Of a stretch of DNA of 32,000 nt, positions 7,243 to 20,742 are shown one piece after another; the stretch's first letter is position 1, and every line of letters begins with the position of its first letter. The DNA is from an uncultured Alphaproteobacteria bacterium. GTDB taxonomy: Bacteria; Pseudomonadota; Alphaproteobacteria; Rs-D84; CACZYB01. Position numbers and translations under genes: made by a program. The stretch spans positions 132,817 to 164,816 of the forward strand of contig CAKQHZ010000002.1 in NCBI GenBank assembly GCA_934246625.1, given 5' to 3'. Under the pieces are notes generated by a model. It did no database searches, was not told the origin of the DNA, and saw only the letters and a list, made by a program, of their open reading frames with translations.

Positions 7243-8079
7243 ATGTCAATTTCTATTGATCAATCTTTTATAAAACAGTTTGAAGCAGAAGTTCATCTTG
7301 CTTTTCAACAAATGGGAACAAAACTTCGTTCTACTGTAAGAACAAAAAATGATGTAAAGGGAAGTTCAACAACTTTTCAAAAAGTAGGTAAGGGAACTGC
7401 AACTACAAAGGCAAGACACGGACTTGTTCCTGTGATGAATTTGGACCATACTCCTGTTGAATGTGTGCTTTCTGATTTCTATGCTGGTGATTGGATTGAT
7501 GAGCTTGATGAAATCAAAACAAATGTTGATGAACGTCGTGTTGTTGCAAGTGCTGGTGCCTATGCTTTGGGTCGCAAAAGTGATGAACTTATTATTTCAG
7601 AACTTAATCAAGCAAATGTGTCTGTTGCAATGGGTGATACTGGTTTAACAAAGGCAAAAATTCTTTCTGCTTTGGAATTACTTAACAATAGCGATGTGCC
7701 AGATGATGGTCAAAGATTTGCAGTTGTTGGTGTGCATCAATGGAATGAACTTTTGAATATGAAAGAATTTTCTTCTGCGGAATATGTTGGTGATACTTAT
7801 CCTTTACTTAAGGGAACAGAAACAAGAAAATGGCTTGGCATAAATTGGATTATGCATAATGCTTTGCCATTTGATGAAAAAACAAAAGCAAGAAATTGCT
7901 TTATATATCACAAAAATTCTGTGGGTCATGCATCTGGTTGTGATGTGAAAACTGATATTACATGGCATGGTGAAAGGGCTGCGCACTTTATTTCAAATTG
8001 TATGAGCCAAGGTGCAAAACTTATTGATAACACAGGTGTTGTGAAAATTATTTGTAAAGATACTTCTGTAATTGCTTAA
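7243..8079 (+). CDS. Major capsid protein, T7 gp10-like
   Basis: FIKQFEAEVHLAFQQ...RSTVRTKNDVKGSSTTFQKVGKG...DELDEIKTNVDERR...SAGAYALGRKSDELIISEL parallels my recollection of T7 gp10A (FLKVFGGEVLTAF...MVRSISSGKSAQFPVLGR...YDIEDAMNHYDVRSE...LGESLAMAADGAVLAEI). At 278 aa it is shorter than T7 gp10A. Confidence 0.8.
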   Translation: MSISIDQSFIKQFEAEVHLAFQQMGTKLRSTVRTKNDVKGSSTTFQKVGKGTATTKARHGLVPVMNLDHTPVECVLSDFYAGDWIDELDEIKTNVDERRVVASAGAYALGRKSDELIISELNQANVSVAMGDTGLTKAKILSALELLNNSDVPDDGQRFAVVGVHQWNELLNMKEFSSAEYVGDTYPLLKGTETRKWLGINWIMHNALPFDEKTKARNCFIYHKNSVGHASGCDVKTDITWHGERAAHFISNCMSQGAKLIDNTGVVKIICKDTSVIA

Positions 8080-8362: not shown

Positions 8363-8387
8363 ATCCCCAGTTTTGGGGATTTTTTTT
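8363..8387 (+). terminator. Rho-independent terminator after the capsid operon segment
   Basis: atcccc (8363-8368) pairs with ggggat (8375-8380), followed by T8. Confidence 0.65.
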
Positions 8388-8399
8388 AAGGAGAAATTT

Positions 8400-8957
8400 A
8401 TGAATAATTTTACAATGATTGATTTGTGTTCAAAGGCTTTGCATAAAATTGGAGCAAATGAAATTGTTTCGTTTGATGAAAATACTCCTGAAGCAGAATT
8501 AAGTAAAAGTATTTATCCTGTTTTAAAAAGGAAATTGCTTTCATCTTTTGTATGGAGTTTTGCAACAAAAGTTTTAAAACTTTCATTGATAGAAGATGAA
8601 AATCAAACAGAGTTTCAATATTGTTTTTTGCTTCCATCTGATTTTATAAGAGCGATTAAAATATCACCAAAAGTTCCATATAAAATTATTGAAAATAAAT
8701 TGGTTGCGAATGTGTCTGATATAGTATTGACGTATGTTTCTGATGTTGATGAGGAAAATTTTTCACCTGCATTTTTAAATGCGTTTATTTATATTTTGTC
8801 CGCAGAATTATCTCTTTCTTTGTTGGACGATGTAGCAAAATTTAATTTGTTTTATCGACTTTATAATTCAGAATTAAGAGAGGCAAGATTTTTGGATAGT
8901 GCACAAGAAACGGCAAAACATTTTGATAATTTTTCTTTAATTGATGTAAGGTATTAG
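8400..8957 (+). CDS. Tail tubular protein A / gatekeeper, T7 gp11-like
   Basis: I moved the start to the ATG at 8400, which has an AAGGAG SD; the track start at 8373 lies inside the terminator. IDLCSKALHKIGANEIVSFDENTPEAELSKSIYPVLKRKLLSSFVWSFA parallels T7 gp11 [46 protein letters not shown]. At 185 aa it is close to T7 gp11 (196 aa). Confidence 0.7.
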   Translation: MNNFTMIDLCSKALHKIGANEIVSFDENTPEAELSKSIYPVLKRKLLSSFVWSFATKVLKLSLIEDENQTEFQYCFLLPSDFIRAIKISPKVPYKIIENKLVANVSDIVLTYVSDVDEENFSPAFLNAFIYILSAELSLSLLDDVAKFNLFYRLYNSELREARFLDSAQETAKHFDNFSLIDVRY

Positions 8958-8965: not shown

Positions 8966-10870
8966 ATGTATAAACAAATTATTTCAAATACAAATTTTGC
9001 GTTTGGTGAAATTTCTCCTTATCTTTTTGGAAGGGGAGATATTGAGGCATATAAAAATGGTGCTATGACTATGTCAAATATGACAGTTATTCCCACAGGT
9101 GGAGTTAAGCGTCGAGCAGGATTAAAGTTTTTGTGTGATTTGCCAAATGCTGGAAAATTGATAAATTTTGATTACTCTTCTTTGGAAAATTTTTTACTTT
9201 ATTTCAGTGAAAATATTTTGTGGATTTATAATAGCATTGGTGAAAAGGTTGCAAGTCTTATGACTCCATTTTCCATTGCTCAATTATCAAATATACGATG
9301 GTCGCAAAAGGGAAATCAATTATATATTGTGCATAAAGATGTTGCACCAAAAGTTTTGAAATATTATCCTCTTGAAGATAATTGGATTTTGGAAGATTGG
9401 CAATATGCGGTAAGTGATAAAAACTTTTCTTGTGAACCATTTGCAAAGTTTGAAGACACAGAAAATATTATGATTACTCCGTCTGGAAAAACTGGTGAAA
9501 TTTCATTGGTTTCATCACAAAGTTTGTTTGATAATTCGTTTTTGGGTATTAAACTTCTTATTGATGGAGGTGAAGTTTGTATTACTCAAATAATTTCTGG
9601 AACAGAGGCAAAGGCTGTTGTAAAAGCAGAATTGAGTGCTTTGGTTGCAACTTCTTCTTGGCAAGAACAGGCATTTTCGCTTAAGCGTGGTTTCCCAAAA
9701 AGTATTGCATTTCATCAAAACAGATTGGTGATTGGTGGGTCAAAAAGTTTGGCGAATAGATTGTGGTTTTCAAAAACAGGAGAATATTTTAATTTTGATT
9801 TGGGTGAAGGTCTTGATGACGAAGCGATTGAGTTTGATTTATTGTCAGACAGAGTTAATGAAATTTTGTGTGTTTTTTCAGGAAAGCATTTACAAATTTT
9901 TACATCAGATTCTGAATGGATGGTGTCTGGGTATCCATTGACACCAACTTCATTGACGGTAAAGCAACAAACCAAAATTGGTTCTGTGGCAGATAAATTT
10001 ATTTCACCAAAACTTGTTGAAGGTTCAACTATATTTGTTGCAAAAAACAACAAAGAAATTCGAGAATTTTTTTATGGAGATATTTCTGAAAATTATTCGT
10101 CCGAAGATTTAATTTTGCTTTCAAATCATTTAATGAATAAACCAAAAGAATTGGATTACGATATTAAAAACCGAATGCTTTATGTTTTGCAAAGTGATGG
10201 GACTATATCAATATTGCTTACAAATAAAACCAATGCTATAAATGCGTGGTTTAAGTATGAAACTCAAGGTGAATTTATTTCGCTTAATGTGTTTAATAAT
10301 ACTTTATATGTTATTGTTAAACGAGATGATAAGTATTTTTTAGAGTATTTGTCCGATGATGTGATGACAGATTCTTCTTTGACTTTTTCTTTTGATACAA
10401 AGGTTGATAAGATTGTTGGAATTTCACATTTGAACAATAAAATTGTTAGTGTTAATGCGGATAATTATGTTTTTGATGTAAAGGTTGAAAATAATGAACT
10501 TATACTTCCTTTGTCAGCAAAAAATGTTTTTTTGGGATTAAGTTATACACATACTTTGTGTCCGTTGCCAGTGTTAATAAATGGGGTTGTCCCACCAAAA
10601 ATTGTGCGACTTTTTGAGTTGACTTTTCGTGTGGTTGATACTCCTTTATTACAAATTGATACTGGTGATGGAATAAGAAATATTACTTGTATGGATTTTG
10701 ATAAGGATAATATCCTTGATAATTCGTTGGTGCCATTTAATGGTGATATTCATATCAAAGCAAAAGGTTTGATTAAAAATTTTGAAGTCCCATTATGGAA
10801 GGTGCAAAGTTCAAAACCTTATAATGTAAAAATTTTAAATATTTCTGCAAAAATTGGTAGTGTAAAATAG
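8966..10870 (+). CDS. Tail tubular protein B / nozzle, T7 gp12-like
   Basis: It sits directly after the gp11-like gene. The N-terminus NFAFGEISPYLFGRGDIEAYKNGAMTMSNMTVIPTGGVKRRAG resembles the gp12-type opening (GGISQQP..R....G...NG.....G..KRP). 634 aa. Confidence 0.6.
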   Translation: MYKQIISNTNFAFGEISPYLFGRGDIEAYKNGAMTMSNMTVIPTGGVKRRAGLKFLCDLPNAGKLINFDYSSLENFLLYFSENILWIYNSIGEKVASLMTPFSIAQLSNIRWSQKGNQLYIVHKDVAPKVLKYYPLEDNWILEDWQYAVSDKNFSCEPFAKFEDTENIMITPSGKTGEISLVSSQSLFDNSFLGIKLLIDGGEVCITQIISGTEAKAVVKAELSALVATSSWQEQAFSLKRGFPKSIAFHQNRLVIGGSKSLANRLWFSKTGEYFNFDLGEGLDDEAIEFDLLSDRVNEILCVFSGKHLQIFTSDSEWMVSGYPLTPTSLTVKQQTKIGSVADKFISPKLVEGSTIFVAKNNKEIREFFYGDISENYSSEDLILLSNHLMNKPKELDYDIKNRMLYVLQSDGTISILLTNKTNAINAWFKYETQGEFISLNVFNNTLYVIVKRDDKYFLEYLSDDVMTDSSLTFSFDTKVDKIVGISHLNNKIVSVNADNYVFDVKVENNELILPLSAKNVFLGLSYTHTLCPLPVLINGVVPPKIVRLFELTFRVVDTPLLQIDTGDGIRNITCMDFDKDNILDNSLVPFNGDIHIKAKGLIKNFEVPLWKVQSSKPYNVKILNISAKIGSVK

Positions 10871-10891: not shown

Positions 10892-11338
10892 ATGGGAGCA
10901 AGTGCTGGTGTTGCCGCAGTTCTTACTGCTGCGGATAGTATTATTGATTATAGAGAAAAAAAGAAGCAACAAAAGGCAAATGAAAAATTATTAAATCAAC
11001 AACAGGAAGTCAAGGAAGAAGAAAATGAAATAAAAAAACAAATTTTAAAAGATGAAAAGACAAATTTGCTTAAAACAAAATTGGCTTCGCAAAAGGCAAA
11101 GTTAGGTGCAAGTGGACTTGTGTCAACAACTGGGTCTTCGGCTGCTTATCTTTCAAGTTTGGAAAAGGATACAGATGAGGAAATTTTGAAAAAAACTTCG
11201 CTTAGTGATTTGAATTTATTAAATGAAACGGCAAATTATGATTACAGAAAAAAGCTAAATTTATTAGATCAAGCAAAGAATGATTATGATTTTTCAAAAG
11301 GCTTGGTTAATAACATTTTTTCAAAAAAATTATTTTAG
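10892..11338 (+). CDS. Small coiled-coil protein in the internal-virion-protein (gp13/gp14) position
   Basis: 148 aa with a hydrophobic N-terminus (GASAGVAAVLTAA) and a K/E-rich coiled-coil-like middle. Assigned from position only. Confidence 0.5.
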   Translation: MGASAGVAAVLTAADSIIDYREKKKQQKANEKLLNQQQEVKEEENEIKKQILKDEKTNLLKTKLASQKAKLGASGLVSTTGSSAAYLSSLEKDTDEEILKKTSLSDLNLLNETANYDYRKKLNLLDQAKNDYDFSKGLVNNIFSKKLF

Positions 11339-11350: not shown

Positions 11351-12073
11351 ATGGGTAAAAATAGTTTAGTAAAACATATATATATTTGTGATGGTGTGCA
11401 AAAAAATTTTGACTATCAATTTGAAAGTTTTTCAAAAACAAGTATAAAAGTTTTTATTGATAACTTGATGATAAAATCTGGGTATGAGATAGTTCCATTT
11501 TCTGACAAGGTTGGTGGAAAAATTATTTTTAATACTCCTCCTTTGAAAGGGAAAGTTTTATCGATTATTCGTGAGTTAGATTTTTCACGAAGTTGTGATT
11601 TTCAAACAGGTGGAATTTTTCGTGCTGAAGATTTGAACTATGAACTTAACTATAATATTGCTTGTCTTAATCAAGTCAATGATGTTTTAACTTTGGCAGT
11701 TAAACTTTCACCACTTGATACAAAAATAAATCCAGTATTGCCAAAGGCAAAAGCAGGCTATGCAATTGTTTGGAATGATACAGAAGATGGATTTTCAAAT
11801 TTAGATGTTAATATTACAGAGCAAGTTCGTTATGTTGAAGATTGCACAAATCTTGTTGAAAATCTTTATAATGATTTAAGTGATTTATTTGCAAGCAATT
11901 CTGATATAGGAGTATTGGGGTTTGTGAATAATTTGCTTACGATTTTAAAAGAACATCATGGTGAAGCGTTTGTTGATTTTCAAAATCTTAATTGTGTAGC
12001 AAATGATGTTATTGATTTTGGAAATGTGTCTGATGAATCACAAATTAGTGTGAAAGATAATGGAATACTTTGA
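11351..12073 (+). CDS. Tail fibre protein, T7 gp17 N-terminal (tail-attachment) domain only
   Basis: YICDGVQKNFDYQFESFSKTSIKVFID...LSIIRELDFSRSCDFQTGGIFRAEDLNYELN parallels T7 gp17 YQLDGSNRDFNIPFEYLARKFVVVTL...[31 protein letters not shown]. Only 240 aa, against 553 aa in T7. Confidence 0.7.
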   Translation: MGKNSLVKHIYICDGVQKNFDYQFESFSKTSIKVFIDNLMIKSGYEIVPFSDKVGGKIIFNTPPLKGKVLSIIRELDFSRSCDFQTGGIFRAEDLNYELNYNIACLNQVNDVLTLAVKLSPLDTKINPVLPKAKAGYAIVWNDTEDGFSNLDVNITEQVRYVEDCTNLVENLYNDLSDLFASNSDIGVLGFVNNLLTILKEHHGEAFVDFQNLNCVANDVIDFGNVSDESQISVKDNGIL

Positions 12074-12668
12074 TAAAAAAATCAGTTTTTTGGATTTTTT
12101 GAAAGATTGGTATAAAACTCAGGGACTTTTGTTTCCAGAACATCATAAAAAAATTGCAAAATGGTTGGAGAGTGTTTATTTTTCTGATAAAAAGCGAGGG
12201 CTTTTGCTTGCTTTTCGAAGTAGTGGAAAGTCAACGGTGGTTGGGCTTTTTTGTTCGTGGCTTTTGTATATAAATCCGAATTTAAGGATTTTGGTTGTTG
12301 CAGCAGATACTATGTTGGCAAAAAAGATGGTGCGAAATATCAAATATATTGTTGAACTTCACCCATTATTGGAAAGTATTAGACCAAAGAAAAAGCAAGA
12401 ATGGGCATCTGGAAGTTTTACCGTGGAAAGAAATTTGGTGTTAAGGGACCCATCTGTGATGGCTGTGGGACTTTTATCAAATTCGACTGGAAGCAGGGCT
12501 GATGTTATTATTTGTGATGATGTGGAGGTGCCAAAAAATTGTGATACTTATCAAAAACGGTGTGATTTGAGAGAGAAATTGTTGGAGTTTAATTTTATTT
12601 TGGTGCCTAATGGTATGCAAATTTTTATTGGGACACCGCATACTTTGGATACTATTTATAAAGTTTAG
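12060..12668 (+). CDS. Terminase large subunit, N-terminal fragment (Walker A/B ATPase core); split gene
   Basis: LLAFRSSGKSTV (Walker A), PNLRILVVAAD, DPSVMAVGLLSNSTGSRADVIICDDVEVPKNC (Walker B) and IFIGTPHTLDTIYKV-stop closely track T7 gp19 ([73 protein letters not shown]). The ORF stops exactly after the LYK-equivalent residues. Confidence 0.85.
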   Translation: MEYFDKKISFLDFLKDWYKTQGLLFPEHHKKIAKWLESVYFSDKKRGLLLAFRSSGKSTVVGLFCSWLLYINPNLRILVVAADTMLAKKMVRNIKYIVELHPLLESIRPKKKQEWASGSFTVERNLVLRDPSVMAVGLLSNSTGSRADVIICDDVEVPKNCDTYQKRCDLREKLLEFNFILVPNGMQIFIGTPHTLDTIYKV

Positions 12669-12729
12669 TATTGATTTTAGGGGAATTTTTTAGTTGTTTT
12701 ATACAAAAAAATATTTTTTTAAAATTTTA

Positions 12730-12757
12730 TTGACAAATTCGAATTAGTTTGTATAAT
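12730..12757 (+). promoter_or_regulatory. Near-consensus sigma70 promoter with no ORF behind it
   Basis: TTGACA (12730-12735), a 16-nt spacer, then TATAAT (12752-12757). Confidence 0.6.
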
Positions 12758-12763
12758 GAGGTT

Positions 12764-12894
12764 GTTTCGTTAATAAGAAAAAAGAATTTGCCGAGACGAC
12801 CCCTCATTTCGGCAGATCTGGTGAAAGCCAGTAATAATCCCCTAAGTCATTCCCTCCTTATTTTCTCTCTCCTCGACTTGGGGGATATTTTTTT
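12764..12894 (+). ncRNA. Candidate sRNA with a CU-rich (anti-SD-like) loop
   Basis: It lies downstream of the consensus promoter. Hairpins are tgccga/tcggca (12789-12814) and ctgg/ccag. A 10-bp stem atcccctaag/cttgggggat (12837-12846 / 12877-12886) encloses the 30-nt loop tcattccctccttattttctctctcctcga, followed by T7. No credible ORF is present; the track ORF 12749..12931 starts with TTG inside the -10 box. Confidence 0.35.
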
Positions 12895-13133
12895 GTCGGG
12901 ACGCCCGAGTAATCTCACAAAGGCAAACTAGAATTTTCTACTAACCCCGTAGAAAATTAAGTTTTTGTTTGTTCGGTTTCTCTCTCCTCGACTTGGGGGA
13001 TATTTTTTTAGTTCAGAAAAGTTAGGATTTGTGAGCTTTTGTTGTGTTTTTGAGGGAAAATAGTCAAATTTGTAAAAAATGTGTGAAAAATTAGAATTTT
13101 CTGTTGAAATTTTGGTTTTAAATTGCTAAAAAA

Positions 13134-13358
13134 GAATCAGTTTTTGAAAAGATTCTCGAATCGATAGTAAAATTTAAAAAAAAGAATCGATTCTTGGTGG
13201 TTTTTTAAGGTTTTATTTTATAGACAATTTGAAATTGCAAAAAGAATCTTTTAATTTTTAATATGTTGTTTTTACAGCATTCTTTTTTGTTTTTTGATGG
13301 CTAATAAGTTGCCAAAAAAAGAATCTCTTGACTTTTTTTGTCGATTGCTTTAAGAATC
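13134..13358. promoter_or_regulatory. Cluster of AAGAATC / GANTC motifs, including the palindrome AAGAATCGATTCTT
   Basis: GANTC sites lie at 13134, 13151, 13158, 13184, 13189, 13244, 13321 and 13354, mostly within A-run+GAATC words. The perfect 14-bp palindrome lies at 13182-13195. Confidence 0.5.
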
Positions 13359-13738
13359 GTTGTATGAGGCGAGTGGAAATTTTCCATTTTGTTTCAAACA
13401 TATTCCCTGTTGCGTTCCTTTTCTCTCCTTTCCTCCTTCTCTCCTCGCAACGGGGGATTTTTTTATACTTGAGTTTTTTTCTGACTGATTCCCTTCGTTA
13501 ATGTCTCACTTACGATTTGTTAAGATGCTAGTTTTTTGCAGGGTGGCGTGGCAACAAGCTAAGCAAACCTAAAACTTTTCACTAATGCCGTTCAAAGTTT
13601 AAGGATAGCTATGCTTGGTGTCTCTTCGCAACGGGGGATTTTTTTTATATAATCTCTTCTCAAGATAGTTAAATTTGCATAAAATGAAAAAAATAACTTG
13701 CGTTTTGGGAAAATATAGGTTATAAACTTGTTATCTTT

Positions 13739-13814
13739 GGCTAGGTAGCTCAGTCGGTAGAGCAAAGGACTGAAAATCCTTGTGTCGGCAGTTCGATTCT
13801 GCCCCTCGCCACCA
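13739..13814 (+). tRNA. tRNA-Phe(GAA): tRNA-Phe (anticodon GAA), CCA encoded
   Basis: 76 nt. The D arm is GCTCAGTCGGTAGAGC, the anticodon arm aagga-CTGAAAA-tcctt, and the T arm ggcag-TTCGATT-ctgcc, ending in ACCA. There is one U:C mismatch at acceptor pair 4:69. Confidence 0.9.
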
Positions 13815-13847
13815 TTATTGGTCCCCCGTTTGGGGGATTTTTTATTT

Positions 13848-14141
13848 GTGTCGGCAGTTCGATTGTCCTCGTGATTGAAAATCACTCGTTCGTCCCGTAA
13901 GCCTAAAACTTCGCCAAAGGCTCGTGTTTAGGCAACTATCGACTCCTGCCCCTCGCCACCACTATTGGTCCCTCATTTGGGGGATTTTTTATTTGTGTCG
14001 GCAGTTCGATTGTCCTCGTGATTGAAAATCACTCGTTCGTCCCGTAAGCCTAAAACTTCGCCAAAGGCTCGTGTTTAGGCAACTATCGACTCCTGCCCCT
14101 CGCCACCATTATTGGTCCCCCGCTTGGGGGATTTTTTATTT
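13848..14141. repeat. 147-bp tandem repeat x2 (plus a 12-nt start of a third unit), each unit a tRNA-Phe 3' half interrupted by 81 nt
   Basis: gtgtcggcagttcgatt recurs at 13782 (inside the tRNA), 13848 and 13995, and partially at 14142. The period is exactly 147 bp, and the units differ at only a few positions in the terminator stem. Confidence 0.9.
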
Positions 14142-14222
14142 GTGTCGGCAGTTTATTGACTTTTAAACCTTCGTTAAATGAGTTTGATGTCATATAGTTT
14201 CTTTGCAAAGTAAGGCAAAACC

Positions 14223-14231
14223 TGTGGATAA
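14223..14231. promoter_or_regulatory. Perfect DnaA box (TGTGGATAA = complement of TTATCCACA) upstream of the ftsZ promoter
   Basis: An exact 9-mer located 33 nt upstream of the putative -35 element. Confidence 0.5.
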
Positions 14232-14263
14232 AAGTTTTTTTTCTTAATTTTTGTTTTCTTTTC

Positions 14264-14292
14264 TTAACATTTGGCTTTTTTTATGCTATAGT
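14264..14292 (+). promoter_or_regulatory. sigma70-like ftsZ promoter
   Basis: TTAACA (14264-14269), a 17-nt spacer, then TATAGT (14287-14292). The SD AAGGAGAGAG precedes the ATG at 14322. Confidence 0.5.
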
Positions 14293-14321
14293 TTATTTGA
14301 GAAAAAATTAAGGAGAGAGAT

Positions 14322-16004
14322 ATGATAGGAGAAGGAAACTTCGGCTATAATTCACAAAATGATGATGAAATTCAAAATTTTATTCCACGAATCACTGTAA
14401 TGGGTGTTGGTGGTGCTGGTTGTAATGCTGTTGGCAATATGATTTCTCAAGGTATTGATGGTGTGGATTTTGTTGTGGCAAATACTGATGCTCAATCTTT
14501 GATGTTGTCAAAGGCTCCTCGTAAAATTCAACTTGGAAAACAAACTACTCGTGGATTTGGTGCTGGCTCAAAACCAGAAGTTGGTAAAACTGCGGCTGAA
14601 GAATCTTTGAATGAAATTGCAGATGTCGTTAAAAATGCAAATATTCTTTTCTTGACTGGTGGTATGGGTGGTGGAACTGGAAGTGGTGCTATACCTGTGA
14701 TTGCATCTGTGGCAAAGGAAAAGGGAATTTTGACTATTGCAATTATTACAACTCCTTTTGATTTTGAAGGTGAAAAGAAAAAACGTATTGCAGAGGAGGC
14801 AATAGCTGAATTACTTCCTAATGTGGATTGTGTTATTACTTTGCCAAATCAAAATTTGTTCAAGGTTGCGGATAAACAAATGTCATTTATCAATGCCTTT
14901 AAACTTTCTGATAATGTCCTTTATGAAGGTGTTAGAAATATTACAGATTTGATTATGAAACCTGGTTTGATTAACCTTGATTTCGCAGATATAAGAACTG
15001 TGATGGAAGGTCAGGGAAAAACCATTATTGGAACAAGTGTTCAAAGTGGTGAAGATAGGGCATTGAAAGCAGTGAAGGGTGCTTTGCTTAATCCTCTTCT
15101 TTCTAATGAAAGTATTAGTGGGGCAAAGGGTATTTTGGTAAATATTACTGGTAATGCTGATAATCTTTCTTTGGAAGAAGTTAATGATATTATGAATACA
15201 ATTCGTGCCGATATAAATTCAAATGATGTTAATTTCGGCTTTGGAACTTGCTTTGACCCATCTATGGGTGATAGCTTGAAAGTTGCTATTATTGCAACTG
15301 GTATTAACGGTGATAATGTTAAAACAGATGTAAATACAACAAAAACAGAAGTTAATAATACTTCTTATAATTCATTTAATAATGTTGCAACTTCTAAACC
15401 TTACTCATTTACAAATATTGAAGAAAAAAAAGAAGAAGTTCGTGTTGAGCCAAAACCAATGGAAAAGCCTATGCCTAGTTTTATGGAAGAAACAGTTGTA
15501 AGTGATAATAAACTTGATAATTTCTTTAAAACCGGTGATGAAAAGGATATTCAAGCCTTTATTGATGAGGAAGCAGAAAAACTTAATGTCGCAAGTTCTG
15601 TTTCAAATGAACTTTTTTCTGATGAAAAAAATAGTATTTTAGATAGTAATGAAGATACTTCTTCTTTGGATAATGTATCTTTGAATGGCAATGGTGATGA
15701 TGACCATGATCCTGAACCACCAAAGGGAAAAAAGAAAAATCCTTTGTCTTCTTTCTTTGATATGATTGGTGAAAAGGATAGTGATGATACTTTTTTTGAT
15801 GATGTGGAAAAAGATGATAATGGTGATGTAAAATTTGAAAATCAATCTGAAATATCAGATAAAAAAGAAGATGATAATGTCGTTTTCTTGGCTGGAAATT
15901 TGGATACAAAGGACCCAGATGATAAGCAAATTGATTTGATGGAAATGATAAAGAAAATGGAAGAAACTTTGGAAATTCCTGCGATATTTAAAAAAGGTTC
16001 ATAA
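14322..16004 (+). CDS. ftsZ: Cell division protein FtsZ (long acidic C-terminal linker)
   Basis: GVGGAGCNAV, the tubulin signature GGMGGGTGSGA, and NLDFADIRTVM are all present. An acidic linker of about 230 aa ends in LEIPAIFKK, which looks like the conserved C-terminal peptide. Confidence 0.95.
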   Translation: MIGEGNFGYNSQNDDEIQNFIPRITVMGVGGAGCNAVGNMISQGIDGVDFVVANTDAQSLMLSKAPRKIQLGKQTTRGFGAGSKPEVGKTAAEESLNEIADVVKNANILFLTGGMGGGTGSGAIPVIASVAKEKGILTIAIITTPFDFEGEKKKRIAEEAIAELLPNVDCVITLPNQNLFKVADKQMSFINAFKLSDNVLYEGVRNITDLIMKPGLINLDFADIRTVMEGQGKTIIGTSVQSGEDRALKAVKGALLNPLLSNESISGAKGILVNITGNADNLSLEEVNDIMNTIRADINSNDVNFGFGTCFDPSMGDSLKVAIIATGINGDNVKTDVNTTKTEVNNTSYNSFNNVATSKPYSFTNIEEKKEEVRVEPKPMEKPMPSFMEETVVSDNKLDNFFKTGDEKDIQAFIDEEAEKLNVASSVSNELFSDEKNSILDSNEDTSSLDNVSLNGNGDDDHDPEPPKGKKKNPLSSFFDMIGEKDSDDTFFDDVEKDDNGDVKFENQSEISDKKEDDNVVFLAGNLDTKDPDDKQIDLMEMIKKMEETLEIPAIFKKGS

Positions 16005-16024
16005 AAATAATTTTTTAAACTTTG

Positions 16025-16059
16025 TCCCCCTTTGATTTTTTTCAAAGGGGGATTTTTTT
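16025..16059 (+). terminator. Rho-independent terminator after ftsZ
   Basis: tccccctttga pairs with tcaaaggggga (an 11-bp stem), followed by T7. The portal gene's SD and ATG follow only about 20 nt later. Confidence 0.7.
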
Positions 16060-16079
16060 AACTTAAATAAGGAGTTAAT

Positions 16080-17576
16080 ATGATTGAAAAGGAAATTTTT
16101 GATAAAAATTTTGTTGATGATGTCTATAACAGATATTTGAATGCAATAGAGAAAAGGTCAGTGTGGGAAAGTTATTGGGAAGAATGTTATGAATATGCTT
16201 TGCCACAAAAAAGTGGAACTTTTAATGGTGAAAATTTTTCTAATGTAAAGAAAAATACAAATGTTTTTGATTCCACTGCGGAATCTGCAGTTGACAGACT
16301 TGCAAGTAGTCTTCTTTCCCAACTTACTCCACCATGGTCAAAATGGTTTGGGTTGGAATTTGGTATTGATATAGCTGATGATGATAAAAAGGAAAAGTAT
16401 CTTCAACTTGAAAATATTGAAAAGATTTTGCAATCTCATTTGGATAGGTCAAATTTTTATGTGGAAGCTCATCAATGCTATTTGGATTTAATTACGGTTG
16501 GAACTGCGGTTATGTTATTTGAAGAAAATGCAGTAGGTGAAAATTCCGCATTTAAGTTTACTTCTGTGCCAATGAATGAAGTTGCGTTTGAAGAAAATAC
16601 GAATGGAAAGTTGGATACTGTATTTCGTCGTTCTTATGTCTCACTTGCAAATTTAAAAATAAGGTTTGCCAATGTTATTTTTGATGAAAAACAACAGGAA
16701 ATTATTTCCAAAAACCTTGATAAAAAAGTGTATGTGATAGAGGCTGTGTTGCCACGAATAACTTCTTCTGGACAACAGGGATATAATTATATTGCGTTTA
16801 TTGATGATGTAGAAAATATTTTTAATAGCTCTGTTAAAATAATTCTTAAAACAGGAGTATTTGCAAATTCTCCGTTTATTTGTTTCAGATGGCAAAAGGT
16901 TAGTTCTGAAATTTATGGAAGGTCTCCTGTGATGAAGGCTTTGCCAGATATTAAAACCGCAAATAAAGTTGTGGAACTTATTCTTAAAAATGCGTCTATT
17001 GCAGTAAGTGGTATTTGGCAAGCAGATGATGATGGCGTTTTGAATCCGCAAAATATAACTCTTGCTCCAGGAACAATTATTCCAAAGGCAGTTGGTTCTA
17101 GTGGGCTTACTCCACTTAGAAGTGGTGCCGATTTTGATGTTTCTCAGTTGGTATTGTCTGATTTGCGTGCAAAGATAAATCATTGTTTACTTGTGGATCA
17201 ATTAGATGTGTCAAATAATTTTAAAATGACTGCAACAGAAGTGATGGAAAGAATAAATCAAATATCTCGTGTGTTGGGGGCAACCTATGGCAGACTTCAA
17301 TCTGAATTTTTGACACCTGTGGTTATTCGTGCAATTTCTATTTTAAAAAGACGTGGTGAAATTTCAGATATACTTGTTAATGGATATGAAGTTGATTTGA
17401 AATATCAATCTCCACTTGCTCAAAATCAAATTGTTCGTGATGCAGAAAATATTTTGAATTGGATAAAAACTTTGTCAGAAGTGTGTGGTGATGCAACAAG
17501 TGTTATTGATAAAAAAGCGGTTGCGTTATATTTGGGAAAAGTTTTTGGTATTTCAGAACGATTGATTTGTGCATAG
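16080..17576 (+). CDS. Portal (head-to-tail connector) protein, T7 gp8-like
   Basis: VYNRYLNAIEKR..W.ECYEYALPQ, VDRLASSLLSQLTPPWSKWF, YGRSPVMKALPDI and MTATEVMERINQISRVLGATYGRLQSEFLTPVV parallel T7 gp8 (VYERLKNDR...CAQYTIPS, LNNLASKLMLALFPMQTWM, YGRSYIEEYLGDL, VTAEEIRYVASELEDTLGGVYSILSQELQLPLV). Confidence 0.85.
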   Translation: MIEKEIFDKNFVDDVYNRYLNAIEKRSVWESYWEECYEYALPQKSGTFNGENFSNVKKNTNVFDSTAESAVDRLASSLLSQLTPPWSKWFGLEFGIDIADDDKKEKYLQLENIEKILQSHLDRSNFYVEAHQCYLDLITVGTAVMLFEENAVGENSAFKFTSVPMNEVAFEENTNGKLDTVFRRSYVSLANLKIRFANVIFDEKQQEIISKNLDKKVYVIEAVLPRITSSGQQGYNYIAFIDDVENIFNSSVKIILKTGVFANSPFICFRWQKVSSEIYGRSPVMKALPDIKTANKVVELILKNASIAVSGIWQADDDGVLNPQNITLAPGTIIPKAVGSSGLTPLRSGADFDVSQLVLSDLRAKINHCLLVDQLDVSNNFKMTATEVMERINQISRVLGATYGRLQSEFLTPVVIRAISILKRRGEISDILVNGYEVDLKYQSPLAQNQIVRDAENILNWIKTLSEVCGDATSVIDKKAVALYLGKVFGISERLICA

Positions 17577-17586
17577 TGAGGATATT

Positions 17587-18465
17587 ATGGAGGAAGATTT
17601 TAGCTTGCCTTTTTTGGCTGGGTTTGATGTCCTTAAAATTCCAGTTATTGAAAATGGGATTCCTGTATGGCCTGAAAAATTCCCGATTGAAAAAATTGAG
17701 GAATTAAAGGTTCGGGTTGGAATGACAAAATTTTCTTCGCAAATGCTACTTAATCCTGTGCAATTAAATAAAGGGCGATTTGATATAAACAAGTTAAAAT
17801 TTTATAATTCTGATTTGTGTGTAGAGGAACATAATCACCTTTTGACCTTTACAATAAATGGTAAAAAAGTTGTCAGTTGTTCGTGTTGGTGGGATCCTTC
17901 GTATGGTTCAATCGGTGGTGATGGAAGTGTTATATCTGTTGTCTTTATTGATGTGGAAGGGCATTACTATCTTCATGACATAAAATATCTTTATCATTCG
18001 GATAAGAAAAAGGAAGAAATTCAATCGGCATTGGAACAATGTCAGCAGGTTGGTGAGTTTGTTAAGGCAAACTATATACCTTCGGTTTATGTTGAAACGA
18101 ATGGTATTGGTAAATTTTTACCAGAGTTTTTAAGAAATGAGTTTTTGAAAATGGGAATTTCCGCTGGGGTTGTTGAAAAGGTTTCTAGGGTTTCAAAAAA
18201 TCTTAGGATTTTAGATGCTTTTGATGTGATTACTTCGGCAGGATATTTATATGTTAATGAAAAGGTGAAAAATACCCCTTGGGTTGCGGAATTTTGTGAT
18301 TGGGGTGTTGATTCAAAAGCTCATGATGATGGACTTGATAGTGTGGCTGGTGCAATTTCGTCTGTGCCAGCCAAGTTGCCTATTTCTGTGTTGGCAAAAC
18401 AAAGAAAAGTAAGTTTTGCAGGGAAAACGTATAGGGTAAAGACAAATTTTGATATAGACTTTTGA
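17587..18465 (+). CDS. Terminase large subunit, C-terminal fragment (rest of the ATPase domain plus RNase H-like nuclease); split gene
   Basis: I prefer the ATG at 17587, which has a GAGGA SD 5 nt upstream; the track uses the GTG at 17569, overlapping the portal stop. IPVWPEKFP...MTKFSSQMLLNP matches T7 gp19 IIWPALYP...GKAGFTLQFMLNP. The nuclease motifs are WWDPSYGSIGGDGSVISVV, VYVETNGIG and KAHDDGLDSVAGAI (T7: ALAHDDRLDALA). Confidence 0.85.
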   Translation: MEEDFSLPFLAGFDVLKIPVIENGIPVWPEKFPIEKIEELKVRVGMTKFSSQMLLNPVQLNKGRFDINKLKFYNSDLCVEEHNHLLTFTINGKKVVSCSCWWDPSYGSIGGDGSVISVVFIDVEGHYYLHDIKYLYHSDKKKEEIQSALEQCQQVGEFVKANYIPSVYVETNGIGKFLPEFLRNEFLKMGISAGVVEKVSRVSKNLRILDAFDVITSAGYLYVNEKVKNTPWVAEFCDWGVDSKAHDDGLDSVAGAISSVPAKLPISVLAKQRKVSFAGKTYRVKTNFDIDF

Positions 18466-18542: not shown

Positions 18543-19184
18543 ATGGATATAAAGAAAAAAAGATATTATATTGTTTTTACTGGATTATTTCTTATAATTC
18601 TAGGTATGCTTATTTATGCTTTGCGACCTGTGAAAAAAGTTAAAAAAGAATCTAATGTGTTGACAAAAGTGTCGGCAGTAAAGACTGTAAAGGTAGTAAA
18701 GGCTGAAAAAGCAAAGGGATTGCCTCTTAATTTTGTTTATGATGTGCCAAGTGATTATAAAAGAACTATACCTCATTATGTTGGTATGAAACGACATATT
18801 GAAGATATGGATAATATGCAAATTGTTTGTAATGGTAAAAATTGTAAAAGACAGGTTCTTACAACTTCAAAGGTAAAAGTTTATCATACCAAAAAAGCAA
18901 AGAAAACTTTGAGTGTTGTAAATGGAAATGTTGTTTTTTCAAAAAATAATTTAAAATATCTTAAAAGTGATGTGAAAATTATTGGTGATTTGTATATTAA
19001 GGATATAAATTTCCTTAAAATTCCTGATAATTTTATTGTGCTTGGTAATATTTACCTTATCAATTCAGAAGGTTTGACTTTTATGGGTAAAACATATATT
19101 GATGGTCATATTTTTGTTAAGGGTAAAAGTAGTGTTAGGGCTTTGCCTTATAATGTGAAATTAACAGGACAGATTTTTATTTAA
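18543..19184 (+). CDS. Membrane-anchored protein with a repetitive beta-strand-rich C-terminus; unknown function
   Basis: The N-terminal TM helix is YYIVFTGLFLIILGMLIYAL. The C-terminus (IIGDLYIKDINFLKIPDNFIVLGNIYLINSEGLTFMGKTYIDGHIFVKG) has a periodic hydrophobic pattern. Confidence 0.5.
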   Translation: MDIKKKRYYIVFTGLFLIILGMLIYALRPVKKVKKESNVLTKVSAVKTVKVVKAEKAKGLPLNFVYDVPSDYKRTIPHYVGMKRHIEDMDNMQIVCNGKNCKRQVLTTSKVKVYHTKKAKKTLSVVNGNVVFSKNNLKYLKSDVKIIGDLYIKDINFLKIPDNFIVLGNIYLINSEGLTFMGKTYIDGHIFVKGKSSVRALPYNVKLTGQIFI

Positions 19185-19235: not shown

Positions 19236-19248
19236 ATTGGAGGAATAT

Positions 19249-19488
19249 ATGGAAGACAGTTTGAAAATTTTGTTAAAAGATAGCAAAGAAGATTTTTCAA
19301 ATATTGAAATTGATTTTTTGCGAACTTTTAATTCACTATCAGGGAAAAAAGTTTTGAAGTATTTGGTTGCCTTAACATTAGGGCGATATTTACCTTCGAA
19401 TTCGTCAAATGAAGAACTTCGTTATTTGGAGGGTGAACGTTTTATTGTATCATTTATTATCAATATGATAAAGAAAGCAAGACAATGA
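19249..19488 (+). CDS. Small phage-type protein (reminiscent of Bbp19-like proteins)
   Basis: I moved the start to the ATG at 19249, which has a GGAGGA SD; the track start is a TTG at 19237. F..FNSLSGKKVLKYL....LRYLEGERFIVSFIINMI resembles the F.t.eG..VL..L....l..eG.R.vv..I pattern I recall for Bbp19-family phage proteins. This is a low-certainty recollection. Confidence 0.45.
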   Translation: MEDSLKILLKDSKEDFSNIEIDFLRTFNSLSGKKVLKYLVALTLGRYLPSNSSNEELRYLEGERFIVSFIINMIKKARQ

Positions 19489-19590: not shown

Positions 19591-19842
19591 ATGGTAAAAT
19601 CTATTTATTCGGCGAATTACGACTTTATGATAAATTTGTTGATTGAAAACAGAAAAAGTATTGGGCTTACACAAACAGAGTTGGCAAAATTGCTTGATAA
19701 ACCTCAATCATATATTTCAAAATATGAAAGCAAGGAAAGGAGAATTGATTTGTGTGAATTTCTTACTATTGTGAAGGCTATTAACAATAAAGATGCCTTA
19801 AGTTTGATTTCAACTTTGCTTGATAATTGGGTTTTGGAATAA
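19591..19842 (+). CDS. XRE/Cro-C1-type helix-turn-helix transcriptional regulator
   Basis: IGLTQTELAKLLDKPQSYISKYESKERRIDLCEF is a classic HTH_3 pattern. An extended -10 (TGCTATAAT, about 19510-19518) lies upstream. Confidence 0.75.
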   Translation: MVKSIYSANYDFMINLLIENRKSIGLTQTELAKLLDKPQSYISKYESKERRIDLCEFLTIVKAINNKDALSLISTLLDNWVLE

Positions 19843-20658
19843 TTATTTTTTAAGGTTTTTAAGTGGAATGTTGATAGTGTTTAATACTGTCAATAATTCA
19901 TTTTTTGCAGCAATGTGTGAAAGTGAAATTTCATCTTTGCCAATTTCCATTAAGTCAAGAATTGTTAAGCCCTTTAAAAACATTTCGCGGTAGACAACTC
20001 GTTCGCCAATGCCTGAAATGTATGTAAAACCAATTTCTGTTTGAAGCAATTTTAATATTGCGTCAATTTCACGTTTGTTTTTTGCATCTATGTGTGAAAT
20101 ACGATTTCTTAAAACTATCCAACGAAGGTCTTGTTTGCCAAGTTCCTTTCTTTTCTTTTGTATATCACGAATATTGTTTGTGTATTGGGATTCTGATATA
20201 ATCTTTTTTGTGTATGGGTCAATGTTTGCAATAACATCTATATCAACAAGGCTGTCATTTACAGGAGTTATCAAAATGTCTGCATTTTTGTGTCCTGCAT
20301 TTGAAAGATGATTGAATGTTCCTGGTGTATCAATAATGATTATATCGTATTCCTTTTTTAAATCTTGGATTTCTGCATCAAGTTGTTCTTCGTCCTCTGC
20401 AGAACTACGTTTGTTAGAAAATTGTGATGGAGTTACAACAAGATGTTCTGGCATAGGCAATTTTAGATGATTGTCATTTGCATAGCGAATACGATTTTCA
20501 ATGTAATGAGTAAGTGTTCCTTGACGACCATCTAGGTCAATAGTTGCAACTTTGTATCCTGCATATAGATAAGCTATAGCAAGATGGATTGAAAGTGTGG
20601 ATTTTCCACTGCCACCTTTCTCATTACCAACGACAATGACATAAGAATTATTGCTCAT
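19843..20658 (-). CDS. mipZ: Division-plane positioning ATPase MipZ
   Basis: I moved the start to the ATG at 20658, which has a GGAGAG SD. VIVVGNEKGGSGKSTLSIHLAIAYLYAGYKVATIDLDGRQGT...LRNR...YREMFLKGLTILDL closely follows Caulobacter MipZ (VIVVGNEKGGAGKSTIAVHL..ALLYGGAKVAVIDLDLRQRT...LRNR...YRELFPFGLTIADL). Confidence 0.8.
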   Translation of the reverse strand: MSNNSYVIVVGNEKGGSGKSTLSIHLAIAYLYAGYKVATIDLDGRQGTLTHYIENRIRYANDNHLKLPMPEHLVVTPSQFSNKRSSAEDEEQLDAEIQDLKKEYDIIIIDTPGTFNHLSNAGHKNADILITPVNDSLVDIDVIANIDPYTKKIISESQYTNNIRDIQKKRKELGKQDLRWIVLRNRISHIDAKNKREIDAILKLLQTEIGFTYISGIGERVVYREMFLKGLTILDLMEIGKDEISLSHIAAKNELLTVLNTINIPLKNLKK

Positions 20659-20742
20659 TTTTTCTCTCCAGTCGCTATTATACATTTTTTTTATGTTAAA
20701 ATAAAGAGATTTGTTTAATGTTTTTATATTTTTTTATCAATT

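What the first reader, a model, noticed from the sequence alone, without database searches (positions are those of the whole stretch)
12060..18465. Terminase large subunit split cleanly in two, with tRNA-Phe, ftsZ and the portal gene in between
The N-fragment (12060-12668) ends ...IFIGTPHTLDTIYKV-stop. The C-fragment (17587-18465) resumes ...IPVWPEKFP...QMLLNP. In T7 gp19 these are contiguous (...[31 protein letters not shown]...FMLNP). Nothing is duplicated, and at most a few residues are missing.

The C-fragment has acquired its own SD and ATG, which overlap the portal stop. Moving the block 4575-12668 into the portal/TerL-C junction would restore an intact terL. It would also restore the canonical T7 order: portal, scaffold, capsid, gp11, gp12, fibre, TerL. 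This suggests a single translocation of about 8 kb.

The break lies after the Walker A/B and GTP motifs, so a two-polypeptide terminase is conceivable but unproven.
Basis: partly seen in the sequence, partly recalled or inferred. Interest (0 to 1): 0.85.

Follow-up and report, generated by a model that had tools for sequence, protein, structure and literature searches.

The report
Conserved two-gene split phage terminase
A gut bacterium keeps a domesticated T7-like virus-particle gene set. Its DNA-packaging motor gene has been cut into two separately encoded halves, 5 kb apart with the cell-division gene ftsZ between them, and both halves have stayed intact across many species, so the motor probably works as two polypeptides.

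Summary
TerL-N (12060-12668) and TerL-C (17587-18465) are exactly collinear halves of one T7-type large terminase. They match PHROG 38 positions 270-458 and 458-715, with nothing lost or duplicated. tRNA-Phe, ftsZ and the portal gene lie between them.

- **Not an artefact or decay.** The same arrangement occurs in 21 independently assembled gut contigs and in 13 other species-level genomes. All split TerLs form one clade (bootstrap 100/100).
- **Both halves are constrained.** They keep every catalytic residue, and dN/dS is 0.09-0.23, like portal and ftsZ.
- **Relatives are unsplit.** About 145 related loci examined all have an unsplit TerL.
- **The cut is inside the ATPase domain.** It falls in a loop 10 residues after the C-motif, so TerL-C carries the last strand(s), the lid subdomain and the nuclease.
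- **The 8-kb translocation origin is not supported.** One outgroup genome keeps the two halves adjacent, cut at the same residue and separated only by 0.55 kb. That spacer holds a conserved small-RNA gene, which also follows TerL-N in this window.

The host element has only structural, packaging and lysis genes, matches the host in GC and co-diverges with host genes. It is a candidate T7-type gene transfer agent. Function as a two-chain terminase is inferred, not shown.

The parts
4575..4862 (+). small membrane protein (orf95). In unsplit relatives its homologue sits directly downstream of TerL.
   Evidence: tblastn synteny; no Pfam hit
4859..5308 (+). cell-wall hydrolase-like protein (probable endolysin)
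   Evidence: PF07486, E 1e-4, below cut-off; homologue follows orf95 in relatives
5330..6064 (+). T7-type scaffold protein
   Evidence: PF05396, E 1e-8
7243..8079 (+). major capsid protein
   Evidence: PF19821, E 3e-77; phrog_3437
8373..8957 (+). gp11-like tail adaptor/tubular protein
   Evidence: phrog_394, E 4e-38
8966..10870 (+). nozzle (gp12-like tail tubular protein B)
   Evidence: PF25675; phrog_376, E 2.5e-112
10892..11338 (+). possible internal virion protein
   Evidence: phrog_418, E 3e-5
11351..12073 (+). tail fibre (T7 fibre N-terminal domain). Its 3' end overlaps the TerL-N start.
   Evidence: PF03906, E 2.5e-5; phrog_1640
12060..12668 (+). TerL-N, the RecA-like core of the packaging ATPase. 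Walker A is A51-S58 (K57 at 12228-12230). Walker B and catalytic Glu are D153, D154, E156 (12516-12527). C-motif is G191-T192-P193 (12630-12638).
   Evidence: phrog_38 positions 270-458; PDB 8dgc_E, E 2e-25; invariant residues in A2; dN/dS 0.09-0.13
12730..12899 (+). perfect sigma-70 promoter (12730-12757) and a ~140-nt conserved small RNA. The RNA has three hairpins, and an invariant CCCUCCUUAUUUUCUCUC lies in the loop of its terminator hairpin. The same gene follows TerL-N in 7 other split loci and fills the N-C gap in L007.
   Evidence: no Rfam family
13739..13814 (+). tRNA-Phe (GAA)
   Evidence: ARAGORN and Rfam, 68 bits
13799..14153 (+). 2.4 tandem copies (147-nt period) that start in the 3' part of tRNA-Phe, each with a terminator. 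Copy number probably varies between strains.
   Evidence: TRF; spacer length is 1327-1505 nt in the other assemblies and 1654 nt in this window
14322..16004 (+). host ftsZ with the C-terminal FtsA-binding peptide. It has its own promoter-like site (14264-14292) and its own terminator.
   Evidence: PF00091+PF12327
16024..16053 (+). strong intrinsic terminator between ftsZ and the portal gene
   Evidence: 12-bp stem, 6 GC pairs, T-run
16080..17576 (+). portal protein
   Evidence: PF12236, E 2e-119
17587..18465 (+). TerL-C, comprising the last ATPase strand(s), the lid subdomain, a linker and the RNase H-like nuclease. Nuclease acidic residues are D103 (17893-17895), E170 (18094-18096) and D247/D248/D251 (from 18325). 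The SD GAGGA (17578-17582) abuts the portal stop.
   Evidence: phrog_38 positions 458-715; invariant residues in A1 and A2; AF2 and Foldseek; dN/dS 0.10-0.23
18543..19184 (+). conserved 213-aa protein of unknown function. It always follows TerL-C in the core split clade.
   Evidence: no family hit
19237..19488 (+). Bbp19-like phage protein. In unsplit relatives it follows the portal gene directly.
   Evidence: PF25181; synteny
19591..19842 (+). HTH_3 (Cro/CI-type) regulator at the right edge of the element
   Evidence: PF01381, E 5e-10
19843..20685 (-). host mipZ, the right flank. This flank is conserved across the split clade, including L007.
   Evidence: PF09140, E 3e-91

Best explanation
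The window comes from the chromosome of a human-gut alphaproteobacterium (~31% GC). It carries a domesticated T7-type head-tail-packaging-lysis cluster with no replication or integration genes, which makes it a candidate gene transfer agent.

In this gut-associated lineage the large-terminase gene is an old, fixed two-gene split.
- TerL-N (202 aa) is the RecA-like ATPase core, with Walker A, Walker B, the catalytic Glu and the C-motif.
- TerL-C (292 aa) carries the remaining strand(s) and lid subdomain of the ATPase, the linker and the RNase H-type nuclease.

The cut lies in a variable acidic surface loop 10 residues after the C-motif. The two products most likely assemble non-covalently (fragment complementation) into a working packaging ATPase/nuclease. 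TerL-C translation is coupled to the portal gene.

Origin: the gene was first interrupted in place. The interruption is associated with a promoter-sRNA-terminator unit that still follows TerL-N. Only later did rearrangements place ftsZ and the portal gene between the halves.

Shown: the split, its collinearity, monophyly, age, intact motifs, purifying selection and independent assemblies.
Inferred: physical assembly of the halves, enzymatic activity, particle production, and a causal role for the sRNA insertion.
For: - **Collinear halves.**
- **Same layout elsewhere.** 21 independent contigs of the same species and 13 other GTDB species genomes share it, with TerL-C identity down to 46%. A 57% GC contig also has the portal-TerL-C junction.
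- **Single origin.** All split TerLs are monophyletic, 100/100 bootstraps. N alone gives 42/50 and C alone 43/50.
- **Relatives are unsplit.** About 65 genomic and 80 IMG/VR relatives are all unsplit.
- **Catalytic residues kept.** K57, D153/D154/E156, T192, D305, E372 and D449/D450/D453 are invariant across 57 sequences, including the window.
- **Purifying selection.** dN/dS is 0.09-0.13 for TerL-N and 0.10-0.23 for TerL-C, against 0.06-0.17 for portal and 0.08-0.23 for ftsZ.
- **The concatenated halves fold as a TerL.** AF2 gives pLDDT 89 and pTM 0.79, with the junction in a loop. The model matches PhiV-1 TerL 8dgc_E at E 2e-27.
- **The break is inside the ATPase domain.** In unsplit P0083, Pfam Terminase_6N spans 65-274 and Terminase_6C spans 316-466.
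- **Coupling to the portal gene.** The TerL-C start overlaps or abuts the portal stop in the window, L001, L004, L006, L028 and L179.
- **In-place split state.** L007 has N, then 0.55 kb, then C, cut at the same residue. The same sRNA follows TerL-N in 8 loci.
- **Element looks domesticated.** GC is uniform. Host genes flank the element and lie inside it, with no integrase or replication genes. Downstream synteny is conserved.
Against: - No experiment shows that the halves interact or are active.
- From my own knowledge of the T4 gp17 literature, separately expressed ATPase and nuclease domains did not restore packaging in trans.
- dS is near saturation (0.8-2), so dN/dS values are rough.
- The AF2 model used a covalently joined chain and mostly unsplit homologues, so it does not test trans assembly. 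I could not inspect its coordinates.
- Whole genomes were not scanned for a second intact TerL of this family.
- The outgroup position of L007 inside the split clade is weakly resolved (44% for core+L028).
- No small terminase was identified.
- The portal/TerL-C promoter was not found. A strong terminator lies 26 nt upstream of the portal gene.
Confidence: 0.62

Rival explanations
1. The halves are both maintained but no longer act together as a terminase. For example, TerL-C could be a portal-associated nuclease and TerL-N a stand-alone ATPase, each recruited for another host function.
For: Purifying selection alone does not say which function is selected. The halves lie in different transcription units, separated by terminators. 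In L028 they have yet another arrangement.
Against: The break leaves neither half with a complete ATPase domain. Both halves are present wherever the contig is long enough, 11 of 11 loci. They evolve in parallel: the N:C conservation ratio is the same in split and unsplit groups. All other particle genes are intact and equally constrained.
Confidence: 0.15
2. One reading: a single ~8-kb translocation of block 4575-12668 broke an intact terL.
For: Re-inserting the block restores TerL continuity and a T7-like gene order.
Against: L007/L030 has the same cut with the halves still adjacent. The restored order would not match the order seen in ~145 unsplit relatives, because Bbp19 and orf95-hydrolase would be swapped. 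L028 has a third layout. The sRNA unit next to TerL-N is shared by the adjacent and the separated forms.
Confidence: 0.1
3. These are decaying prophage remnants, and the two ORFs are pseudogene fragments without function.
For: The element lacks replication, integration and large internal-core genes. Some unsplit relatives look eroded, for example L090 lacks the nozzle.
Against: The ORFs are intact in 17 lineages that have diverged to 45-57% identity. Catalytic residues are invariant. dN/dS is ~0.1-0.2, equal to ftsZ. Start and stop positions are conserved.
Confidence: 0.07
4. The halves are rejoined into one polypeptide or one gene. Possible routes are an intron, trans-splicing, a split intein, ribosomal bypassing, or programmed DNA excision of the intervening segment in producer cells.
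For: There are precedents. TerL genes are interrupted by group I introns in some phages (PMC11878797). Herpesvirus UL15 has two exons with genes in between (my own knowledge).
Against: N plus C is 494 aa, the same length as unsplit TerL (~499 aa), which leaves no room for intein sequence. No intron family is found in the window spacer or the L007 spacer. TerL-C has its own SD and ATG, and TerL-N has its own stop. The spacer carries sigma-70 promoters and terminators. No direct repeats above chance occur at the two junctions in 9 loci. No recombinase is nearby.
Confidence: 0.03
5. The arrangement is an assembly or binning chimera.
For: The window is probably from a metagenome assembly.
Against: The identical order occurs in 21 independently assembled contigs up to 116 kb. 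The exact TerL-N is on 109 contigs up to 715 kb. The arrangement is also conserved across species.
Confidence: 0.01

Closest known systems
T7/PhiV-1 large terminase gp19 (PDB 8dgc, 4bij); PHROG 38; Pfam Terminase_6N + Terminase-T7_RNaseH-like
   Same: Same fold and motifs: Walker A/B, catalytic Glu, C-motif and the acidic residues of the RNase H-type nuclease. It sits in the same structural-gene neighbourhood of portal, scaffold, capsid, gp11, gp12 and fibre.
   Different: It is encoded as two polypeptides cut inside the ATPase domain. It shares only ~25-31% identity with deposited phage TerLs. It is chromosomal and host-ameliorated.
Unsplit T7-type elements of Alphaproteobacteria (Rhodospirillales, Micavibrio, Curvivirga, Novispirillum, Ferrovibrio; IMG/VR ~12-kb UViGs)
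   Same: All cluster genes are homologous (38-67% identity). The set contains only structural, packaging and lysis genes and is flanked by host genes.
   Different: Their TerL is one ~500-aa gene. The order is portal-Bbp19-scaffold...TerL-orf95-hydrolase. There is no ftsZ/mipZ linkage and no sRNA.
Gene transfer agents (RcGTA, BaGTA, BhGTA; FpGTA of Faecalibacterium)
   Same: A phage-derived particle cluster without replication functions, vertically inherited, under purifying selection, with host genes interspersed. FpGTA is also from the gut and podovirus-like (PMC12946183; PMC9662315).
   Different: It has a different phage ancestry (T7-type). No particle or transfer data exist. No recognised GTA has a split TerL.
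TerL genes interrupted by group I introns or inteins (e.g. Bastillevirinae, Twort-like phages), and herpesvirus UL15 (two exons with other genes in between)
   Same: The coding sequence of the packaging ATPase is interrupted, and in UL15 other genes lie in the gap.
   Different: Those cases are spliced back into one polypeptide. Here there is no intron or intein signature, and the halves have separate translation signals.
Naturally split enzymes of jumbo phages (RNAP beta/beta' and a minimal Pol III alpha encoded as separate, distant genes; PMC7824862)
   Same: A catalytic domain is divided between separately encoded polypeptides that are presumed to reassemble.
   Different: A different enzyme is involved. 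That review describes TerL as a universal two-domain protein.

Membership tests
Large terminase subunit (TerL), T7 type | N-terminal ASCE ATPase with Walker A, Walker B plus catalytic Glu, and the C (coupling) motif | tested here: met
   A51-S58, D153/D154/E156 and G191-T192-P193 are invariant in a 57-sequence alignment. PDB 8dgc_E matches at E 2e-25.
Large terminase subunit (TerL), T7 type | C-terminal RNase H-like nuclease with conserved acidic residues | tested here: met
   D103, E170 and D247/D248/D251 of TerL-C are invariant. PF22530 is weak (E 3e-3). Foldseek hits nuclease-domain structures.
Large terminase subunit (TerL), T7 type | Both domains on one polypeptide | tested here: not met
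   Two ORFs 4.9 kb apart, each with its own start and stop.
Large terminase subunit (TerL), T7 type | ATP-driven DNA packaging and DNA cleavage activity | not testable with these tools
   Needs biochemistry.
Gene transfer agent (viriform) | Phage-derived particle genes without replication or integration functions, scattered among host genes | tested here: met
   No integrase or replication domains in the 32-kb window. accBC, ftsZ, mipZ, truA-fmt-def flank or interrupt the cluster.
Gene transfer agent (viriform) | Vertical inheritance with the host and purifying selection | tested here: met
   ftsZ/mipZ/truA-fmt-def synteny is conserved across species. dN of phage genes tracks dN of ftsZ, and dN/dS is 0.06-0.3. 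GC is uniform.
Gene transfer agent (viriform) | Particles package random host DNA and transfer it, and cannot transmit their own full gene set | not testable with these tools
   Needs VLP sequencing or transfer assays.
Intron- or intein-interrupted TerL | A self-splicing intron or intein sequence between the halves | tested here: not met
   No Rfam intron. N plus C equals the unsplit length, with no extra residues.

The most novel reading that the evidence does not exclude
Alphaproteobacteria harbour a previously undescribed, vertically inherited T7-type (podovirus) gene transfer agent family. In its gut-associated branch the packaging motor is an obligate two-chain enzyme, whose ATPase domain is completed in trans by a fragment translated together with the portal protein. 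The halves were first separated by insertion of a small-RNA gene and are now wrapped around the essential division gene ftsZ. This layout may tie particle production to cell-division control.
Probability: 0.35. Interest if true: 0.85.

Novelty: new variant of a known kind. Interest (0 to 1): 0.76.

Why it matters
TerL is treated as a universal single-chain, two-domain motor protein. A natural split that has been stable over long evolutionary time and falls between the RecA core and the lid subdomain is an evolutionary experiment on the motor. It shows which covalent connections the motor can do without. It also gives a ready-made system for testing how lid and nuclease movements couple to ATP hydrolysis, and whether motor activity can be gated by assembly with a portal-coupled fragment.

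The split also points to a large, apparently undescribed family of ~12-kb T7-type, structural-genes-only elements. Relatives occur in 273 alphaproteobacterial species genomes, several of them cultured. This family may be a new GTA lineage, including members in the human gut.

Tried and rejected
- **TerL-C against PDB sequences.** The single sequence gave no hit and the A1 profile only chance SRP hits at E~0.5. I used PHROG profiles, AF2 and Foldseek instead.
- **Rfam on the spacers.** Nothing beyond tRNA was found.
- **Direct repeats at the two junctions.** The test for DNA-level rejoining gave nothing above chance.
- **L028 as an active phage with a split TerL.** PHROG hits were too few to decide.
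- **Genes after TerL-C in L007 versus genes between TerL-N and ftsZ in L001/L004.** No homology was found, so the exact series of rearrangements could not be reconstructed.
- **Representative-library search with TerL-N.** It lists several ~200-250-aa N-only proteins in other lineages. Contig truncation cannot be excluded, so I did not use them.
- **PHROG families 4758 (N-only length) and 5573 (C-only length).** They hint at other split TerLs. I did not follow this up.
- **sRNA loop against the ftsZ ribosome-binding site.** The loop is complementary to strong SD sequences in general, so no specific ftsZ targeting can be claimed.
- **Literature searches.** I found no description of a T7-type GTA or of a two-polypeptide TerL. 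The library is incomplete.

Full report
**1.

The window (~31% GC throughout) encodes on the + strand a T7-type morphogenesis set:
- scaffold (PF05396)
- capsid (PF19821, E 3e-77)
- gp11-like adaptor (phrog_394)
- nozzle (PF25675; phrog_376, E 2.5e-112)
- a possible internal virion protein
- a fibre N-domain protein (PF03906)
- portal (PF12236, E 2e-119)

The 202-aa ORF at 12060-12668 matches PHROG 38 'terminase large subunit' positions 270-458 (E 3e-42). The ORF ending at 18465 matches positions 458-715 (E 5e-34). The two therefore abut at one profile position. TerL-N also aligns to residues ~41-211 of the T7-family TerL chains 8dgc_E and 4bij_A (E ~1e-25).

tRNA-Phe (13739-13814), ftsZ (14322-16004) and the portal gene (16080-17576) lie between the halves. 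The portal stop, TAG at 17574-17576, is followed directly by GAGGA and then ATG at 17587. Gene callers and all homologues use that ATG, giving 292 aa.

**2. It is not an artefact**

The exact TerL-N protein is recorded on 109 contigs up to 715 kb. In the 21 contigs read, all from human-gut assemblies including Hadza samples, the order is the same (7 places shown)...nozzle-ivp-fibre-TerL-N-(1.3-1.5 kb)-ftsZ-portal-TerL-C-orf213-Bbp19-HTH-mipZ.

**3. The split is old, arose once and is conserved**

A search with TerL-C found ~23 clusters at 59-76% identity, all 287-293 aa long. More distant relatives (40-49%) are ~470-520-aa full-length TerLs from Alphaproteobacteria, many on contigs of 0.2-3 Mb.

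A scan of one genome per GTDB species found relatives in 273 genomes. I mapped all window proteins onto the 80 best loci and checked reading frames.
- 13 species-level genomes share the window's layout. TerL-C identity falls as low as 46%, and the set includes MAGs labelled Rickettsiales.
- One genome (L007=L030) has TerL-N and TerL-C adjacent but as separate ORFs.
- One genome (L028) has portal-TerL-C followed 3.2 kb later by TerL-N.
- About 65 genomes have one continuous TerL.

All 80 IMG/VR relatives are continuous too. A 57% GC metagenome contig (L179) also has the portal/TerL-C junction.

In an NJ tree of TerL (76 loci, 486 columns) every split form falls in one clade, 100/100 bootstraps. 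N-only and C-only columns recover the same clade in 42/50 and 43/50 replicates. The halves therefore share one history and one lineage.

**4. Nothing is missing and both halves are constrained**

Unsplit relatives read ..GTPHTxxTIYxx, then an 8-10 aa variable acidic loop, then FLxGF... The window reads ..GTPHTLDTIYKV-stop and then MEEDFSLPFLAGF.... In L008 the distance between the two HSPs equals the number of residues left unaligned in the window halves.

In a 57-sequence alignment of the concatenated window protein with unsplit homologues, the following columns are invariant:
- Walker A (G56, K57, S58)
- Walker B and catalytic Glu (D153, D154, E156)
- the C-motif (G191, T192, P193)
- the nuclease acidic residues (D305, E372, D449, D450, D453)

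Pairwise Nei-Gojobori estimates within the split clade:

| Gene | dN/dS |
|---|---|
| TerL-N | 0.09-0.13 |
| TerL-C | 0.10-0.23 |
| portal | 0.06-0.17 |
| ftsZ (host, essential) | 0.08-0.23 |

dS is 0.8-2, near saturation, so these ratios are rough. They are clearly far below 1. The N:C conservation ratio is the same in split and unsplit groups.

**5. Where the cut falls**

AlphaFold2 on the concatenated halves, with the alignment, gave pLDDT 89 and pTM 0.79. The junction (202/203) lies in a loop of lower confidence, between the strand that ends in the C-motif (181-191) and a further strand at 216-220. Two short helices follow (236-254), and the nuclease sheet starts at ~273.

Foldseek matched full-length TerLs: PhiV-1 8dgc_E at E 2e-27, plus T4 gp17, Sf6 gp2, HK97 and D6E. 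ATPase-only structures aligned over ~250-280 columns and nuclease-only structures over ~200-220.

In the unsplit homologue P0083, Pfam Terminase_6N spans residues 65-274 and Terminase_6C spans 316-466. The break corresponds to ~215-220 in that numbering.

The cut is therefore inside the ATPase domain. TerL-N is the RecA-like core. TerL-C carries the last strand(s), the lid subdomain, the linker and the nuclease. I infer that the ATPase can only be completed by association of the two chains. I could not inspect the model coordinates, and a joined-chain model does not test trans assembly.

**6. How the split arose**

L007/L030 belongs to the split clade. Its host genes are more distant than any core member (ftsZ 42%, mipZ 53%). 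Its layout is ...fibre-TerL-N-(0.55 kb)-TerL-C...ftsZ-portal-Bbp19-mipZ, with the cut at the same residue.

Correct order, orientation and adjacency of the two halves are far more likely to be retained than re-created. The gene was therefore most probably interrupted in place first.

The 0.55-kb spacer contains a sigma-70 promoter and a small RNA. The same RNA gene lies directly 3' of TerL-N in the window and in L001, L004, L011, L013, L017 and L018. In L028 it lies between TerL-C and TerL-N on the other strand. Its features are:
- a perfect TTGACA-16-TATAAT promoter at 12730-12757
- three hairpins
- an 18-nt invariant CCCUCCUUAUUUUCUCUC in the loop of the terminator hairpin
- compensatory changes in the stems

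It is absent from unsplit loci and matches no Rfam family. Association of this transcription unit with the cut is shown. That it caused the cut is inferred.

Later rearrangements put ftsZ-portal between the halves, or equivalently moved TerL-C and orf213 behind the portal gene. That is not the order of the ~145 unsplit relatives, which read portal-Bbp19-scaffold-capsid-orf82-gp11-nozzle-(ivp)-(fibre)-TerL-orf95-hydrolase, or the circular permutation starting at TerL.

**7. No sign of rejoining**

- The two halves sum to the unsplit length, so there is no room for intein sequence.
- No intron family is found in either spacer.
- The spacer holds promoters and terminators, and ftsZ ends in a strong terminator at 16024-16053.
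- The two junctions share no repeats above chance in nine loci.
- The TerL-C start overlaps or abuts the portal stop in the window, L001, L004, L006, L028 and L179. This points to translational coupling with the portal gene.

**8. What the element is**

- Within 32 kb there is no integrase, replication or polymerase gene.
- The flanks are accB/accC on one side and mipZ, tRNA-Arg, truA, fmt, def and rmuC on the other.
- The downstream synteny is kept in species whose TerL-C is only 63% identical.
- GC is uniform.
- dN of the phage genes tracks dN of ftsZ across pairs.
- All particle genes are full length compared with relatives.
- Unsplit relatives are likewise 10-14-kb sets with only structural and lysis genes, inside chromosomes. 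Some have a GTA-type holin (PF11351) and a GcrA gene next to them. Many IMG/VR entries are only ~12 kb.

This fits the genomic definition of a gene transfer agent, but no particle or transfer data exist.

The recognised GTA families are RcGTA, BaGTA and BhGTA, which that review traces to three independent phage domestication events; none is described as T7-derived in the passages I read (PMC9662315). A 2026 paper presents Faecalibacterium FpGTA as the first podovirus-like GTA-like element and the first in the human gut (PMC12946183). I found no description of this alphaproteobacterial family or of a two-polypeptide TerL. Deposited phages show only single-feature TerLs at 25-31% identity.

**9. 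Verdict**

The proposed origin is revised. The 'two-polypeptide terminase' reading is upgraded from conceivable to best-supported, but it is still untested experimentally.

The finding is a new variant of a known kind: TerL within a GTA-like domesticated phage cluster. A packaging-motor specialist would find it surprising, and it can be tested directly.

Noticed in passing
window 12730-12899 (paralogue-like weaker copies at 12908-13014 and 13291-13471); L001 3132-3271; L004 1366-1505; L007 9488-9624; L011 2592-2728; L013 5883-6011; L017 2000-2139; L018 3342-3480; L028 12118-12294 (-): An undescribed ~140-nt small RNA with a perfect sigma-70 promoter. Its terminator hairpin has a ~30-nt CU-rich loop that contains an invariant anti-Shine-Dalgarno-like CCCUCCUUAUUUUCUCUC, and the stems show compensatory changes. 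It is always next to TerL-N, is absent from unsplit loci and has no Rfam match. It could pair with strong ribosome-binding sites, for example AAGGAGAGAGA of ftsZ, but specificity is not shown.
   Followed up: partly
window 13799-14153: 2.4 tandem copies of a 147-nt unit that begins inside the 3' part of tRNA-Phe. Each copy carries an ~80-nt insert and its own terminator. The TerL-N to ftsZ spacer varies from 1327 to 1654 nt between assemblies of the same species, which suggests copy-number variation. The repeats may be scars of integration at the tRNA.
   Followed up: partly
window 14264-16053 and 19843-20685: ftsZ is not in a dcw cluster. It sits inside the phage-derived cluster as its own promoter-to-terminator unit, and mipZ (the FtsZ-positioning ATPase) flanks the element. 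The ftsZ-portal and Bbp19-mipZ adjacencies are conserved even in the outgroup L007. Unsplit relatives L008 and L090 have the cell-cycle regulator gene gcrA next to the element.
   Followed up: partly
window 16054-16079: Only 26 nt separate the strong ftsZ terminator from the portal start, and no promoter is evident. Portal/TerL-C expression might depend on terminator read-through, as with anti-termination control in Caulobacter GTA. Other internal terminators lie at 7111-7137, 7196-7211, 8361-8382 and 19208-19229.
   Followed up: no
window 6159-6500: A Lys/Ala-rich repeat protein (75-nt repeat, 2.9 copies) lies between the scaffold and capsid genes. It is 88, 113 or 138 aa in different assemblies of the same species. 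It looks like a histone H1-like or DNA-binding protein.
   Followed up: no
window 3651-4151 (-): A Cys-rich secreted-looking protein with 33-nt tandem repeats (RPIIFSPYSD units), just left of the element.
   Followed up: no
L028 8539-14680: A third arrangement of the split: portal-TerL-C (start overlapping the portal stop), then a flavodoxin-like gene, the sRNA on the opposite strand, three small ORFs and TerL-N. An anti-repressor-like gene precedes the portal gene, and no ftsZ is nearby.
   Followed up: partly
L179 1-2713: A 57% GC metagenome contig has the same portal/TerL-C junction (ATGA overlap). The split clade is therefore not confined to AT-rich gut genomes.
   Followed up: partly
L008-L090 and L099-L178 (unsplit loci): A T7-type element with only structural and lysis genes, ~10-14 kb long, is widespread in Alphaproteobacteria. 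Relatives occur in 273 GTDB species genomes and 109 IMG/VR contigs. Two circularly permuted gene orders exist. The elements lack the large internal-core proteins (T7 gp15/gp16 equivalents) and carry host-gene insertions, for example an ODP-family gene in L008.
   Followed up: partly
PHROG families 4758 and 5573; P0209, P0250, P0266: PHROG holds 'TerL' families whose profile lengths match an N-only (243) and a C-only (250) fragment. Several ~200-230-aa N-only proteins occur in other lineages. Other independent TerL splits may exist.
   Followed up: no
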